Of a DNA stretch of 64,000 nt, positions 30,076-48,419 are shown piece after piece (positions within the stretch are counted from its first letter, which is position 1; every line of letters begins with the position of its first letter). The DNA is from the human T2T-CHM13v2.0 reference genome, Homo sapiens. The translations under genes and the position numbers were made by a program. The DNA lies in assembly GCF_009914755.1 (NCBI RefSeq), contig NC_060944.1; one strand, given 5' to 3'. The notes beneath the pieces were generated by a model. The model was not told where the DNA came from. It ran no database searches and worked only from the letters and a program-made list of their open reading frames with translations.

Positions 30076-30819
30076 ATTTGTGATATAATACCTCATTTTA
30101 TTCATCTTTGAAACTACCTCTCTCCCCAGACCGTGCCACATGGCTTACAGCACAGGGGTAGGCATGTACTGAGAAAAAGTCCATTAAATCCCAGCTCCAA
30201 GGTGACACTTAGCAGAGAGCTAGATGGCCCAGTGTCTGTCTGATGACCCTTAGAGAAGGACTGCCTTTACCTTCCAGACATGGAATAATTCAATAGAGGG
30301 AAAGCATAAAAATCAGGACGGAGTTAACTCATGGTACCCAGTAGGCAAGTTAATCTGTCAAATGCCATTATGGGAAGAGCAGACTACCAAGTCCCCATAT
30401 CACAGGAATTCAAAAGGAATTTATTTTGAAGCATTTTTGTTTGGACTGAAAATGAACAAGAAGATGACATGTGAACAAAAGAGATAAAGAAGAAGATTTA
30501 AGCACCAGAAGAAAGACCCAGAAAATGATCCCAGTGAGCAAAAGATCGCAGAGAAAAATAACAAGTACACAGGGCAGTAAGATCAAAATCAGATTACTTA
30601 ATAAAAGCTAGCATTTCTCTAAATGGAAAACAATGCACGTTGTTTGTCCTTGAAATGTGACACGTACTCCTTTTTCAAGAATACCAAGGCACTCCAAAGC
30701 AATGGCCCATATCTGACAAAGCCCCATCACCCTAGAGCCCTGGAGGTCATTGTTCCTATACAATATTAGAAGGTTTGATTGAATAGATGTCACAGAACTT
30801 AGCAGTCACTTGAAATAGA

Positions 30820-31085
30820 AAAATCAAACACCGCATGTTCTCACTCATAGGTGGAAATTGAATAGTGAGAACACATGGACACAGGAAGGGAAACATCACA
30901 CACCGGGGCCTGTTGTGGGGTGGGGGATGGGGGAGGGATAGCATTTGGAGATACACCTAATGTTAAATGACGAGTTACTGGGTGCAGCACACCAACATGG
31001 TACATGTATACATATGTAACTAACCTGCACGTTGTGCACATGTACCCTAAAACTTAAAGCATAATAAAAAAAAGAAAAAAGAAAA
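30820..31085 (+). mobile_element. 5'-truncated L1PA (about PA4/5) 3' end
   Basis: CACCGCATGTTCTCACTCATAGGTGG...GTACCCTAAAACTTAAAG followed by an A-rich tail. No clear TSD. Confidence 0.9.
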
Positions 31086-32230
31086 CCCCAGAAAATAAAC
31101 CTATGCAGGGACAGGTAGAATTTGAATTAGGCTAGGGCCTACCTGGTCAATAATGAAATAATTGCTCAAGGCACGTTCTTCTGTAATCTTTTGCAATGTA
31201 ACAACTATTCTGTGCCCTACCTCTCAATGCTGCCTCAACATTTGTACATAATCTCAGGGCCTCCTAAAGACACCGATTCAGAGGCCAGACAGTCACTTCC
31301 CTAATGCCACAAAAATAGATTCAATTCTACATACATCAGGGTGATTTCAGAAGCAATTTCTCATCTCCAGTGTAAGCATTACTTACATTTTTCCCCCTCA
31401 AATCTCATCCCAGTGGTTCCACAGGGCATTTTAAAGGTACCTGATGCATTCTAGGGCAGTCAAAAGATCCTGAGAGTGTTTTTGTAGCTGTAGCCTGAGG
31501 ACGTCAGATGCATAGAGAGTCCTAACGTATTCAGTGATTCAGACTAATGCAGAATTTTCTAATAATTGAGTATAATAAGTCAATCATTATTTAAATATTT
31601 TAGAAAGCAATATTGTTATGATGAATGCATATATACAGTCATATATGTATATTTGTGTATATATGACTGTGTAGGTTTATACCTCTCTCTGTATATTTAC
31701 GTGTCTGTGTAAATATAAAACACATATGCACACACATACATACACACCTTAATCATTTGAAAAGTTTGTCCCTGGCCTTTAAAACATCTAATTAGATTTC
31801 ACTGGATATTTCTCCTCTTCCTTTATGGCAAGTTAAACTATTTCAGTCTTGGGTGTTTTCATCTTAAGGGTCTAAGTTTTGGCCCATAGCGAACAGTGAC
31901 AATGTTATCCTTTGAAACATAAGAAATCAGTATTACCCAGGTTTGCATTTGAGATCAGAAAGATTGAGAACCAATATCTAAAATTTCAGGGTCACAATGA
32001 TTGTCAAGAAGTTTTGGCCATAATCATTTTGCTTTTAAGAGTCCTCCCAGGGTACTTTTACAAATGGAAAAAAGTGCACAAGAGGCTGGACTGGACAGAA
32101 AAGGATGAATTGGTATTACTTGACCAGTATTTTCAATCAGATGAACTTGCAAATGAACTTCTCTGCCCCAGAGCCGAAAGCAGGGGATCCAGTGACAACT
32201 TAGCATAGCCAGAGACTCAGTGAGCTCCTG

Positions 32231-35144: not shown

Positions 35145-35384
<240 letters not shown>

Positions 35385-41082: not shown

Positions 41083-42179
41083 AGCAAAGTAGAACTGCTT
41101 AGGTCTCTTTTGGAAGCACCTAACGCCTGAATTCCCCTCCCCAATTTTTCTGGTTTAGCAACCTTCTCTTCACCTTTTAAGGCCCAACTCAAATGTCCCC
41201 TACTCTTAGAAGTCTTTGCCTCCTTCCCAAAGTTAGAAGTTCCCTCCTCTTTGCTCATTAATTTGTTGGACAAATAGTTAATGAGCAAGTACGTTGAATC
41301 TGTGGCTGTTAGAAGGAAGGAGATGATGATATGAAAAACAAGACAGGAATCCTGCCCTGTTTGGCTTTTGCAAGTACTCAGCTCCCTGCTATTGGAGAAG
41401 TTCAAGTAGAGACTGGGAAACCACTTAGAAAAGAGGTGGTGGAGGATCCCAGGATTTGGACTCTGCAAAACCCTTGACTCTCTTCTGGGCTAGGAACAGG
41501 ACCATCCAGCCAACTGGTGGGGGCAGGAGTCTACAGGGTTCCACCTAGAGTTTTTCCCTGAATGTGGGAGCCATGCCCACTCTCCTGGGGAGACACTGAT
41601 CAGGCACTCTTCCTCTTCCCCATAGGGCTCCTCCTCTGGGCCATCCTCCATTGCAATCTCCAGATAAACTTTCCTGGAAACCATGAAGATTGAAATCCTG
41701 GAGTCAGAGATCTCAGCCATAGGAAGTGGACCAAAAAAAAAATTCACAAGTGAGGCCCTGCTTCTACTAAAAGCTGGCACTGTCCTCTTTGAATCCAGGA
41801 TGCTCTGCTGGCATGACTAGATCTCAGCTTAAAGTTACACATCGCAACTGTAAGGGAACTATAGCATCTTCTCATTTCATAGACAAGACACTGAGGCCTG
41901 GACAGAGTAGTCCCTTAGCTAAGATGCACAGCATGTAGGATGCAAGCCCTGCTTTCTGCCTGCCAGTTCAGGAATGTGGACACCTGCTCCACATTCCTCC
42001 ATGCTTCTTCTAGGGATTTGCCCTTCCAGATTAGAAGGGCAAATTCAGTCTGTGGTACACATGATTCCAGTGTCTTACAAATGCAGCAAAACTTTATTCA
42101 TCTATGCCCCCACTGACTCAGAATTACTGTAATTGAGGCAAAGGCTGAGCTACATCACATAAGAATCAATAGTGTAGCA

Positions 42180-43094
42180 GGGGGAGGAGCCAAGATGGCC
42201 GAATAGGAACAGCTCTGGTCTACAGCTCCCAGCGTGAGCGACGCAGAAGACGGTGATTTCTGCATTTCCATCTGAGGTACCGGGTTCATCTCACTAGGGA
42301 GTGCCAGACAGTGGGCGCAGGTCAGTGGGTGCGCGCACCATGCGCGAGCCGAAGCAGGGCGAGGCATTGCCTCACTTGGGAAGCGCAAGGGGTCAGGGAG
42401 TTCCCTTTCCGAGTCAAAGAAAGGGGTGACGGACGGCACCTGGAAAATCGGGTCACTCCCACCCGAATACTGCGCATTTCCGACGGGCTTAAAAAACGGC
42501 GAACCACGAGATTATATCCCACACCTGGCTTGGAGGGTCCTACGCCCACGGAGTCTCGCTGATTGCTAGCACAGCAGTCTGAGATCAAACTGCAAGGTGG
42601 CAGCGAGGCTGGGGGAGGGGCACCCGCCATTGCCCAGGCTTGCTTAGATAAACAAAGCAGCCCGGAAGCTCGAACTGGGTGAACTGGGCGGAGCCCACCA
42701 CAGCACAAGGAGGCCTGCCTGCCTCTGTAGGCTCCACCTCTGGGGGCAGGGCACAGACAAACAAAAAGACAGCAGTAACCTCTGCAGACTTAAATGTCCC
42801 TGTCTGACAGCTTTGAAGAGAGCAGTGGTTCTGCCAGCACGCAGCTGGAGATCTGAGAACCTGCAGACTGCCTCCTCAAGTGGGTCCCTGACCCCTGACC
42901 CCCGAGCAGCCTAACTGGGAGGCACCCCCCAGCAGGGGCACACTGACACCTCACAAGGCAGGGTATTCCAACAGACCTGCAGCTGAGGGTCCTATCTGTT
43001 AGAAGGAAAACTAACAAACAGAAAGGACATCCACACCGAAAACCCATCTGTACATCACCATCATCAAAGACCAAAAGTAGATAAAACCACAAAG
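42180..43094 (+). promoter_or_regulatory. L1 5'UTR: CpG-rich internal sense promoter plus antisense promoter (ASP) pointing in PTPRT sense
   Basis: The YY1 site CAAGATGGCC (42191-42200) is intact and many CpGs are retained. There is a small 9-bp duplication GAACTGGGY at 42672-42689. The ASP location is established knowledge for L1PA 5'UTRs. Confidence 0.85.
42322..42630 (-). CDS. L1 ORF0 (antisense ORF), open, 102 aa here, with splice donors SD1 (42525/42524) and SD2 (42440/42439)
   Basis: MAGAPPPASLPPCSLISDCCASNQRDSVGVGPSKPGVGYNLVVRRFLSPSEMRSIRVGVTRFSR... lies inside ORF-track entry 42322..42708. Donors CCAG|GTGTGG and CCAG|GTGCCG fall after ORF nt 106 and 191. Confidence 0.85.
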   Translation of the reverse strand: MAGAPPPASLPPCSLISDCCASNQRDSVGVGPSKPGVGYNLVVRRFLSPSEMRSIRVGVTRFSRCRPSPLSLTRKGNSLTPCASQVRQCLALLRLAHGARTH

Positions 43095-44111
43095 ATGGGG
43101 AAAAAACAGAACAGAAAAACTGGAAATTCTAAAACGCAGAGCGCCTCTCCTCCTCCAAAGGAACACAGTTCGTCACCAGCAACGGAACAAAGCTGGATGG
43201 AGAATGACTTTGACGAGCTGAGAGAAGAAGGCTTCAGACGATCAAATTACTCTGAGCTACAGGAGGACATTCAAACCAAAGGCAAAGAAGTTGAAAACTT
43301 TGAAAAAAATTTAGAAGAATGTATAACTAGAATAACCAATACAGAGAAGTGCTTAAAGGAGCTGATGGAGCTGAAAACCAAGGCTCGAGAACTACGTGAA
43401 GAATGCAGAAGCCTCAGGAGCCGATGCGATCAACTGGAAGAAAGGGTATCAGCAATGGAAGATGAAATGAATGAAATGAAGCGAGAAGGGAAGTTTAGAG
43501 AAAAAAGAATAAAAAGAAATGAGCAAAGCCTCCAAGAAATATGGGACTATGTGAAAAGACCAAATCTACGTCTGATTGGTGTACCTGAAAGTGATGGGGA
43601 GAATGGAACCAAGTTGGAAAACACTCTGCAGGGTATTATCCAGGAGAACTTCCCCAATCTAGCAAGGCAGGCCAACGTTCAGATTCAGGAAATACAGAGA
43701 ACGCCACAAAGATACTCCTCGAGAAGAGCAACTCCAAGACACATAATTGTCAGATTCACCAAAGTTGAAATGAAGGAAAAAATGTTAAGGGCAGCCAGAG
43801 AGAAAGGTCGGGTTACCCTCAAAGGGAAGCCCATCAGACTAACAGCGGATCTCTCGGCAGAAACCCTACAAGCCAGAAGAGAGTGGGGGCCAATATTCAA
43901 CATTCTTAAAGAAAAGAATTTTCAACCCAGAATTTCATATCCAGCCAAACTCAGCTTCATAAGTGAAGGAGAAATAAAATACTTTACAGACAAGCAAATG
44001 CTGAGAGATTTTGTCACCACCAGGCCTGCCCTAAAAGAGCTCCTGAAGGAAGCGCTAAACATGGAAAGGAGCAACCGGTACCAGCCGCTGCAAAATCATG
44101 CCAAAATGTAA
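43095..44111 (+). CDS. L1 ORF1p (RNA-binding chaperone), intact 338 aa
   Basis: MGKKQNRKTGNSK...NHAKM at full length, with REKG, ARR and YPAKLS motifs retained. Confidence 0.96.
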   Translation: MGKKQNRKTGNSKTQSASPPPKEHSSSPATEQSWMENDFDELREEGFRRSNYSELQEDIQTKGKEVENFEKNLEECITRITNTEKCLKELMELKTKARELREECRSLRSRCDQLEERVSAMEDEMNEMKREGKFREKRIKRNEQSLQEIWDYVKRPNLRLIGVPESDGENGTKLENTLQGIIQENFPNLARQANVQIQEIQRTPQRYSSRRATPRHIIVRFTKVEMKEKMLRAAREKGRVTLKGKPIRLTADLSAETLQARREWGPIFNILKEKNFQPRISYPAKLSFISEGEIKYFTDKQMLRDFVTTRPALKELLKEALNMERSNRYQPLQNHAKM

Positions 44112-44174
44112 AGACCATCGAGACTAGGAAGAAACTGCATCAACTAACGAGCAAAATCACCAGCTAACGTCATA

Positions 44175-48002
<3,828 letters not shown>

Positions 48003-48242
48003 ACAATGAGATCACATGGACACAGGAAGGGGAATATCACACTCTGGGAACTGTTGTGGGGTGGGGGGAGGGGGGAGGGATAGCATTGGGAGATATACCT
48101 AATGCTAGATGACGAGTTAGTGGGTGCAGTGCACCAGCATGGCACATGTATACATATGTAACATGTAACTAACCTGCACAATGTGCACATGTACCCTAAA
48201 ACTTAAAGTATAAAAAAAAAAAAAAGACAAAAAAAAAAAAAA

Positions 48243-48346
48243 GAGTTCAATGTGTTGGGAAGTCACAAAGTATAAGTACCATGCTAGTGCTAGGAAAATA
48301 AAGATGACCCAATTAGTCTTTTTTCTCAAAAAAAAAAAAAAAAAAA
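48243..48346 (+). other. L1 3' transduction (85 bp) plus second poly(A)
   Basis: Non-L1 sequence 48243-48327 sits between two poly(A) tracts and inside the TSD pair. AATAAA is at 48297-48302. Confidence 0.92.
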
Positions 48347-48419
48347 AAGAATCAATAGTGTAAATAGGGATATGGATGTGTGCAGCATTTAAAGGAGAAT
48401 GCACTGTTTTCCCTCGTAT

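What the first reader, a model, noticed from the sequence alone, without database searches (positions are those of the whole stretch)
48201..48362. 85-bp 3' transduction with a visible cause: the L1's own AATAAA is missing
Seen: the order is L1, poly(A), 85 bp of unique DNA with AATAAA (48297-48302), a second poly(A) 25 nt later, then the 16-bp TSD. The L1 ends AAAGTATAAAAA rather than the usual AGTATAATAAAA. Inference: the source element read through and used a downstream signal. The tag identifies the parent locus and any sibling copies.
Basis: partly seen in the sequence, partly recalled or inferred. Interest (0 to 1): 0.7.

Follow-up and report, generated by a model that had tools for sequence, protein, structure and literature searches.

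The report
LINE-1 copy tagged by vanished parent
A broken LINE-1 jumping-gene copy on chromosome 20 carries 85 extra bases whose only other match lies at a LINE-1-free spot on chromosome 1, likely the seat of a since-lost parent that likely read past its missing stop signal; this is an ordinary, well-known kind of event.

Summary
The order is full-length L1PA2, A14-GAC-A14, 85 bp, AATAAA, a second A-tail 25 nt later, all inside an exact 16-bp TSD. The tag has one other match in CHM13, chr1:158,455,677-763 (95%). That site already holds the AATAAA, the match ends at a CA, and no young L1 sits upstream. The tag starts at an endonuclease-like site. So this is a 3' transduction from a donor that CHM13 lacks (0.85).

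The AATAAA loss was probably inherited (about 0.75). The one other copy with this element's 7-bp 3'UTR duplication (chrX) has the same ending, while 12 of 12 readable wider relatives keep a signal.

"Visible cause" overstates it. 488 L1 ends lack AATAAA in this way, 9 of 12 TSD-resolved ones have no tag, and the chrX and chr2 relatives have none. I put the loss as a contributing cause at about 0.55.

Both the mechanism (a source without its signal gives transductions) and absent donors are already published. No sibling with the tag was found, and ape genomes could not be checked. New member of a known kind; interest 0.2.

The parts
42161..42176 (+). 5' target-site duplication, 16 bp
42177..42179 (+). 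three extra bases (GCA) between TSD and L1 start; untemplated, or cap-G plus 2 nt of donor flank (unresolved)
   Evidence: extra bases are also seen at 4 of 5 other L1PA2 5' junctions
42180..48211 (+). full-length L1PA2, antisense to PTPRT; 1.36% non-CpG difference from the column majority of 9 aligned copies
   Evidence: PTPRT strand from the hub annotation
42672..42689 (+). 9-bp tandem duplication in the 5'UTR, private to this copy
43095..44111 (+). ORF1, open, 338 aa
44371..48002 (+). ORF2, broken into at least three pieces (44371-44847 endonuclease part, 44973-46394 RT part, 46434-48002)
48114..48116 (+). GAG at the 3'UTR diagnostic position (L1PA2 or older, not L1HS)
   Evidence: PMC7026601 and PMC5210629 passages
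48156..48169 (+). 7-bp tandem duplication in the 3'UTR, shared with one L1PA2 copy on chrX
48209..48214 (+). L1 end without AATAAA; only the variant hexamer TATAAA remains
   Evidence: its weakness as a signal is recalled
48212..48242 (+). first A-tail (A14-GAC-A14), inferred to be the donor's own tail
48243..48327 (+). 85-bp transduced tag; matches chr1:158,455,677-158,455,763 at 95% (3 substitutions, 1 indel)
48297..48302 (+). AATAAA in the tag, also present at the chr1 site (158,455,731)
48328..48346 (+). second A-tail; begins where the chr1 sequence has a CA dinucleotide
48347..48362 (+). 3' target-site duplication, 16 bp

Best explanation
This is a full-length L1PA2 with an 85-bp tag that matches one L1-free site on chr1, likely a 3' transduction from a parent L1 that once sat there, likely already lacked its AATAAA, and was later lost from this lineage. 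Steps: (1, inferred) an L1PA2 inserted at chr1:158,455,674/675; (2, inferred, about 0.75) it carried the AATAAA-less end seen in the chr20 and chrX copies; (3, inferred) Pol II read through its A-tail, used the flanking AATAAA 54 nt into the tag and the RNA was cut at CA about 26 nt later; (4, shown by anatomy) that RNA was copied whole into a PTPRT intron on chr20 with a 16-bp TSD; (5, inferred) the chr1 allele never fixed or was lost. The missing AATAAA likely raised the odds of read-through (about 0.55) but did not force it.
For: One TSD pair encloses L1, both tails and the tag. The only other copy of the tag is at chr1, same strand sense, with AATAAA in place and the match ending at CA. 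No L1 above 73% identity lies in the 8.6 kb upstream of the chr1 site. The tag starts at TTCTTC/AAGAG; four pyrimidines before AA plus two purines occur at 4% of AA starts in the 18 kb fetched, two pyrimidines at 11%; the endonuclease consensus is 5'-TTTTT/AA and variants (PMC7026601 passage). Tag divergence of 3 substitutions in 86 fits L1PA2 age (P 0.14-0.48). Inheritance: the chrX copy shares the 7-bp duplication, 42705A, 46460C, 47053G, 47929A and the same AATAAA-less end; a chr2 copy with 47053G and 47929A also lacks AATAAA; 12 of 12 readable copies (of 14 fetched) that match only at 47053G keep AATAAA (11) or ATTAAA (1). Precedent: a source without the signal gave 83 of 83 transduced offspring in one tumour (bioRxiv 2024.08.27.596794).
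Against: The donor itself is not seen; no ape or pangenome sequence could be searched. No sibling carries the tag. The loss is common: 488 ends versus 3802 with AATAAA. 9 of 12 TSD-resolved AATAAA-less copies have no tag, and neither do the chrX and chr2 relatives. The chr2 ending (one extra AT) differs from the chr20/chrX ending and may be an independent loss. The chrX copy keeps 6 older non-CpG states in ORF1, so it is not a clean sibling. A tree of 18 3' ends gave chr20+chrX only 80/56 support and no clustering of the loss (4 changes, shuffled mean 3.8; no well-supported branch).
Confidence: 0.85

Rival explanations
1. Same transduction, but the AATAAA loss is incidental: it arose in the chr20 copy during or after insertion by slippage in the A-run, or it was inherited and made no difference because the L1 signal is weak anyway. 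This rival concerns the cause step only.
For: 488 of 4290 counted L1 ends have this lesion; it does not cluster on a weak tree; spacers between two A-runs were seen in 3 of 12 resolved AATAAA-less and 3 of 11 resolved AATAAA-bearing copies; sources with a canonical signal often transduce (PMC13009371 section 9).
Against: The chrX relative has the identical end, expected by chance about 1 time in 9; 12 of 12 readable wider relatives keep a signal; tags over 30 nt were 2 of 12 versus 0 of 11 (not significant); published source without the signal gave mostly transductions.
Confidence: 0.45
2. No L1 ever sat at chr1. Reverse transcription began on a polyadenylated host RNA ending at the chr1 signal, copied 85 nt and jumped onto the poly(A) tail of an L1 RNA, giving a chimera.
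For: The donor is absent in CHM13; the junction has AA microhomology with poly(A); L1 chimeras with host RNAs by template switching are described (PMC13174262 passages).
Against: The junction falls on an endonuclease-like site found at only 4-11% of AA starts; no call showed a transcript ending there; in the U6 chimeras described in the passages seen, the foreign RNA lies 5' of the L1 part.
Confidence: 0.07
3. Two insertions: the L1 came first, and a short 5'-truncated retrocopy of a chr1 RNA later landed in its A-tail with an invisible all-A target duplication.
For: A-runs flank the tag on both sides, so an all-A duplication cannot be excluded.
Against: It still needs an RNA that ends at the chr1 signal and is truncated exactly at the endonuclease-like site; tag divergence fits the age of the L1.
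Confidence: 0.05
4. The 85 bp belong to the chr20 site and the TSD is a chance match.
For: None found.
Against: Exact 16-bp TSD, chance about 2e-6; 95% match on chr1 confined to the tag, with no flank similarity.
Confidence: 0.01

Closest known systems
L1-mediated partnered 3' transduction (PMC9311842 passages; PMC13009371 passages and sections 9-10; Hoyt et al. bioRxiv 2021.07.12.451456 passages)
   Same: L1, A-tail, unique tag, AATAAA 10-30 nt before a second A-tail, one TSD pair; 85 bp is near the reported median of 63 for polymorphic L1 tags; interchromosomal.
   Different: Nothing structural. It is an old L1PA2 event rather than a polymorphic or somatic L1HS one.
L1HS source at 2q24.1 without the canonical signal (bioRxiv 2024.08.27.596794, section 5 and passages)
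   Same: Missing canonical signal, offspring ending at a downstream signal; even that source had 105 of 355 solo offspring across the cohort, as the chrX relative here would be.
   Different: There the source exists and many offspring were counted; here there is one tagged offspring and the donor is inferred.
Transductions with absent donors: class 1 source loci (PMC4862182 section 14) and proxy elements (PMC13009371 section 10)
   Same: The tag maps to a locus with no donor L1 in the reference.
   Different: Those concern polymorphic or somatic events with donors still segregating; an L1PA2 donor is more likely lost long ago.
L1 chimeras with host RNAs (PMC13174262 passages)
   Same: Non-L1 sequence in sense orientation inside one TSD pair; that paper also invokes a lost ancestral L1 allele for one case.
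   Different: In the cases seen the foreign part is 5' of the L1; here it is 3', behind an internal A-tail.

Membership tests
L1 3' transduction | One TSD pair enclosing L1 and tag | tested here: met
   16 bp exact
L1 3' transduction | Two A-tails with non-L1 sequence between | tested here: met
L1 3' transduction | Poly(A) signal 10-30 nt before the second tail, present at the source locus | tested here: met
   25-26 nt; AATAAA at chr1:158,455,731
L1 3' transduction | Tag maps uniquely to another locus | tested here: met
   2 matches in the genome: itself and chr1; the search skips very common words
L1 3' transduction | Donor L1 directly upstream of the tag at the source | tested here: inconclusive
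   Absent in CHM13; an endonuclease-like empty site marks the junction; absent donors are a described class; other genomes not searchable
L1 3' transduction | Orthologous empty chr20 site lacks the tag | not testable with these tools
   No ape or second human genome held (no relatives)
L1PA2 | GAG at the 3'UTR diagnostic position | tested here: met
   48114-48116; means L1PA2 or older
L1PA2 | Closer to young copies than to older L1PA | tested here: met
   2.5-3.4% from 7 young copies versus 4.9% from an older chr1 copy; groups with the young set
L1PA2 | Best match to the curated L1PA2 consensus | not testable with these tools
   No repeat library held; the L1PA2-versus-L1PA3 motifs used are recalled
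Retrotransposition-competent L1 | Both ORFs open | tested here: not met
   ORF1 open, ORF2 in at least three pieces

The most novel reading that the evidence does not exclude
The chr20, chrX (103.10 Mb) and chr2 (40.24 Mb) copies are the fossils of a small L1PA2 lineage that lost its AATAAA stepwise and kept jumping for at least two generations without it. One of its masters sat at chr1:158,455,675, was lost from humans by lineage sorting and survives in an ape, where its AATAAA-less end and predicted TSD can be read directly. That would be a germline, evolutionary-time case of signal loss driving transduction.
Probability: 0.25. Interest if true: 0.4.

Novelty: new member of a known kind. Interest (0 to 1): 0.2.

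Why it matters
It matters modestly. It pins the address of an extinct or absent L1PA2 donor to a base and links two or three surviving copies into a micro-lineage, which gives one sharp test in ape and pangenome assemblies. It also suggests a cheap genome-wide test of whether old L1s without AATAAA carry more transductions. It adds no new mechanism: 3' transduction, absent donors and the effect of signal strength are all in print. The chr20 element is dead and the tag's AATAAA is on the strand opposite PTPRT, so no effect of the tag on the gene is expected.

Tried and rejected
Siblings by tag: none.

Siblings by the 9-bp 5'UTR duplication: none.

The chr7 hit to the 7-bp duplication pattern is a short, rearranged, older fragment (91% over 67 bp) and was dropped.

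The L1 5 kb downstream of the chr1 site as donor: rejected. It lies 3' of the tag and is only 94.8% identical.

47053G as a private marker: rejected, 14 other copies match at 100%. This weakens the P of 0.007 computed earlier for four shared substitutions.

A possible 190-nt tag behind the chr2 relative: rejected, the stretch has no second copy; its TSD is imperfect and most likely lies directly after the tail.

Reading the donor TSD length from 5' extra bases: GCA here would imply 9 bp, TTG in the chrX copy 17 bp; they conflict and both are within chance.

A tree test for one origin of the AATAAA loss was uninformative.

A proxy for transductions without 5' ends gave false positives and was not scaled up.

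An L1PA2-only count of the two endings was not obtained; the only guide is 13 of 30 versus 7 of 30 L1PA2-like copies among the first chr1 matches.

Literature: searches for this locus and for lost L1PA2 donors showed no description of this event. Szak et al. 2003 was seen only as a reference entry, and the CHM13 transduction table of Hoyt et al. (Table S13) could not be seen; either may list it.

Full report
Observation. The described order is in the sequence at the stated places. An exact 16-bp TSD at 42161-42176 and 48347-48362 encloses three extra bases, a full-length L1 (42180-48211), A14-GAC-A14 (48212-48242), 85 bp (48243-48327) with AATAAA at 48297-48302, and an A21 run starting 25 nt after the hexamer. 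The chance of such a 16-mer is about 2e-6. The L1 end has no AATAAA; a variant TATAAA is left at 48209-48214.

The element. It has GAG at the 3'UTR diagnostic position, which marks L1PA2 or older (PMC7026601 and PMC5210629, passages). It differs by 2.5-3.4% from seven young copies and 4.9% from an older one. ORF1 is open; ORF2 is in at least three pieces, so it is dead. It lies in a PTPRT intron, on the opposite strand (hub annotation).

Source of the tag. A genome search with the tag gave 2 matches: itself and chr1:158,455,677-158,455,763 at 95%. The reciprocal search with 341 bp of chr1 gave the same 2, and the match was confined to the tag. The chr1 site already has the AATAAA (158,455,731), and the shared sequence stops at a CA, the usual cleavage dinucleotide (recalled). 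In the 8.6 kb upstream there are only old L1 fragments of 69-72% identity; the one younger L1 (94.8%) starts 5 kb downstream and cannot be the donor. The tag starts at TTCTTC/AAGAG. Four pyrimidines before AA plus two purines occur at 4% of AA starts in the 18 kb fetched, two pyrimidines at 11%. This fits an empty endonuclease site (consensus in PMC7026601). An olfactory receptor ORF lies 4 kb upstream on the minus strand (the name OR10J3 is recalled). Three substitutions in 86 bases are compatible with the L1's age (P 0.14-0.48).

Did the donor lack AATAAA? A second one, 7 bp at 48156-48169, is shared exactly with one other copy, on chrX at 103.10 Mb (a third, 1-mismatch hit on chr7 is a short older fragment; none of the other 38 of 40 scored matches has it). 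The chrX copy is full-length and has the same AATAAA-less end. Among nine aligned copies it alone shared four non-CpG substitutions with the window. One of these, 47053G, proved to mark a wider group of 14 other copies. Of those 14, 12 had readable ends, and all 12 keep AATAAA (11) or ATTAAA (1). A chr2 copy at 40.24 Mb has both 47053G and 47929A and also lacks AATAAA, though with a slightly different ending. Two copies with 47929A only (chr9, chr7) end one with and one without AATAAA. The simplest reading is one inherited loss before the chr20 and chrX copies split (about 0.75). Against it: the chrX copy keeps six older non-CpG states in ORF1 that neither the window nor the chr2 copy has, so it is a mosaic; and a tree of 18 3' ends gave the pair only 80/56 support, with no well-supported branch.

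Was the loss the cause? It is not sufficient. The chrX copy has its 13-bp TSD right after the tail, and the chr2 copy has no duplicated flank. Genome-wide, 488 L1 ends read like this one and 3802 keep AATAAA directly (L1PA2 and older pooled, other endings not counted). I took the first 30 of each, all on chr1, so not a random sample. Among the AATAAA-less 30, 12 had a resolvable TSD: 9 had no tag and 3 had one (about 950, 330 and 10 nt). Among the AATAAA-bearing 30, 11 were resolved (one duplicated pair counted once, two low-complexity calls dropped): 3 had short spacers of 9-19 nt and none a unique tag over 30 nt. Donors of these tags were not traced. The difference is not significant. Published work shows both sides. 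A source without the canonical signal gave 83 of 83 transduced offspring in one tumour, yet 105 of 355 solos across the cohort (bioRxiv 2024.08.27.596794, section 5 and passages). Sources with a canonical signal often transduce too (PMC13009371 section 9). I put a causal contribution at about 0.55.

How it most likely worked. An L1PA2 inserted at chr1:158,455,674/675 (inferred). Its transcript ran through the A-tail, used the flank's AATAAA and was cut at CA (inferred from the exact end point). The whole RNA was copied into chr20 (shown by the TSD). The chr1 allele was then lost or never fixed (inferred; L1PA2 is thought to predate the human-chimpanzee split and to be rarely polymorphic, PMC7026601 passage). 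The rivals without a donor (template jump, 0.07; second insertion into the tail, 0.05) must explain the endonuclease-like junction by chance.

Comparison with what is known. 3' transduction is common and catalogued: 183 top-confidence L1 events in CHM13 (bioRxiv 2021.07.12.451456, passages), median tag 63 nt among polymorphic events (PMC9311842, passages), about 15% of insertions (PMC10883270, passage). Absent donors are described (PMC4862182 section 14; PMC13009371 section 10). Searches for this locus found nothing relevant, nor did those for lost L1PA2 donors (PMC13174262 passages, give a parallel case). Szak et al. 2003 was seen only as a reference entry, and the supplement of Hoyt et al. 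could not be seen; either may list this event.

Verdict. Real and well supported, a new member of a known kind. The added facts are the donor's empty address and two related copies without AATAAA. Interest 0.2.

Noticed in passing
L069 (G000:C23:103102800-103110000, minus strand): Full-length L1PA2 relative whose ORF1 region (window-equivalent 43071-43865) keeps six older non-CpG states absent from five other young copies: likely gene conversion or a recombinant.
   Followed up: partly
L102 (G000:C2:40240700-40247900, minus strand): Full-length L1PA2 with 47053G and 47929A; its end has one extra AT compared with the window, a possible intermediate in stepwise loss of AATAAA.
   Followed up: partly
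L011 and L070 (G000:C1 near 20.658 Mb): AATAAA-less, 5'-inverted L1PA2 with what looks like a two-step 3' transduction: A-runs at about +70 and +325, TSD after the last. Donors not traced.
   Followed up: partly
L012 (G000:C1 near 27.766 Mb) and L018 (near 65.436 Mb): Further AATAAA-less copies with TSD-enclosed tags of about 950 nt and 10 nt.
   Followed up: no
window 41850-42482: The RefSeq enhancer overlaps the L1 5'UTR. The L1 is antisense to PTPRT, so its antisense promoter (recalled) would point along PTPRT towards the exon at 35150-35298, about 7 kb away.
   Followed up: no
window 42322-42630 minus strand: A 102-aa antisense ORF in the L1 5'UTR, resembling primate L1 ORF0 (recalled, not tested).
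   Followed up: no
L072 and L075 (G000:C1 near 30.29 and 40.24 Mb): Two L1PA2 copies with internal 5'UTR deletions (about 126-400 and 100-797 of the element), like spliced integrated elements (label recalled).
   Followed up: no
L003:3702-4691 minus strand (chr1:158,450,701-158,451,690): 329-aa olfactory receptor ORF 4 kb from the donor site, with Pfam 7tm_4 covering only positions 2-224 of 280; name OR10J3 recalled.
   Followed up: partly
window about 30808-31093: A second, short L1 3' end in the window that keeps its AATAAA.
   Followed up: no
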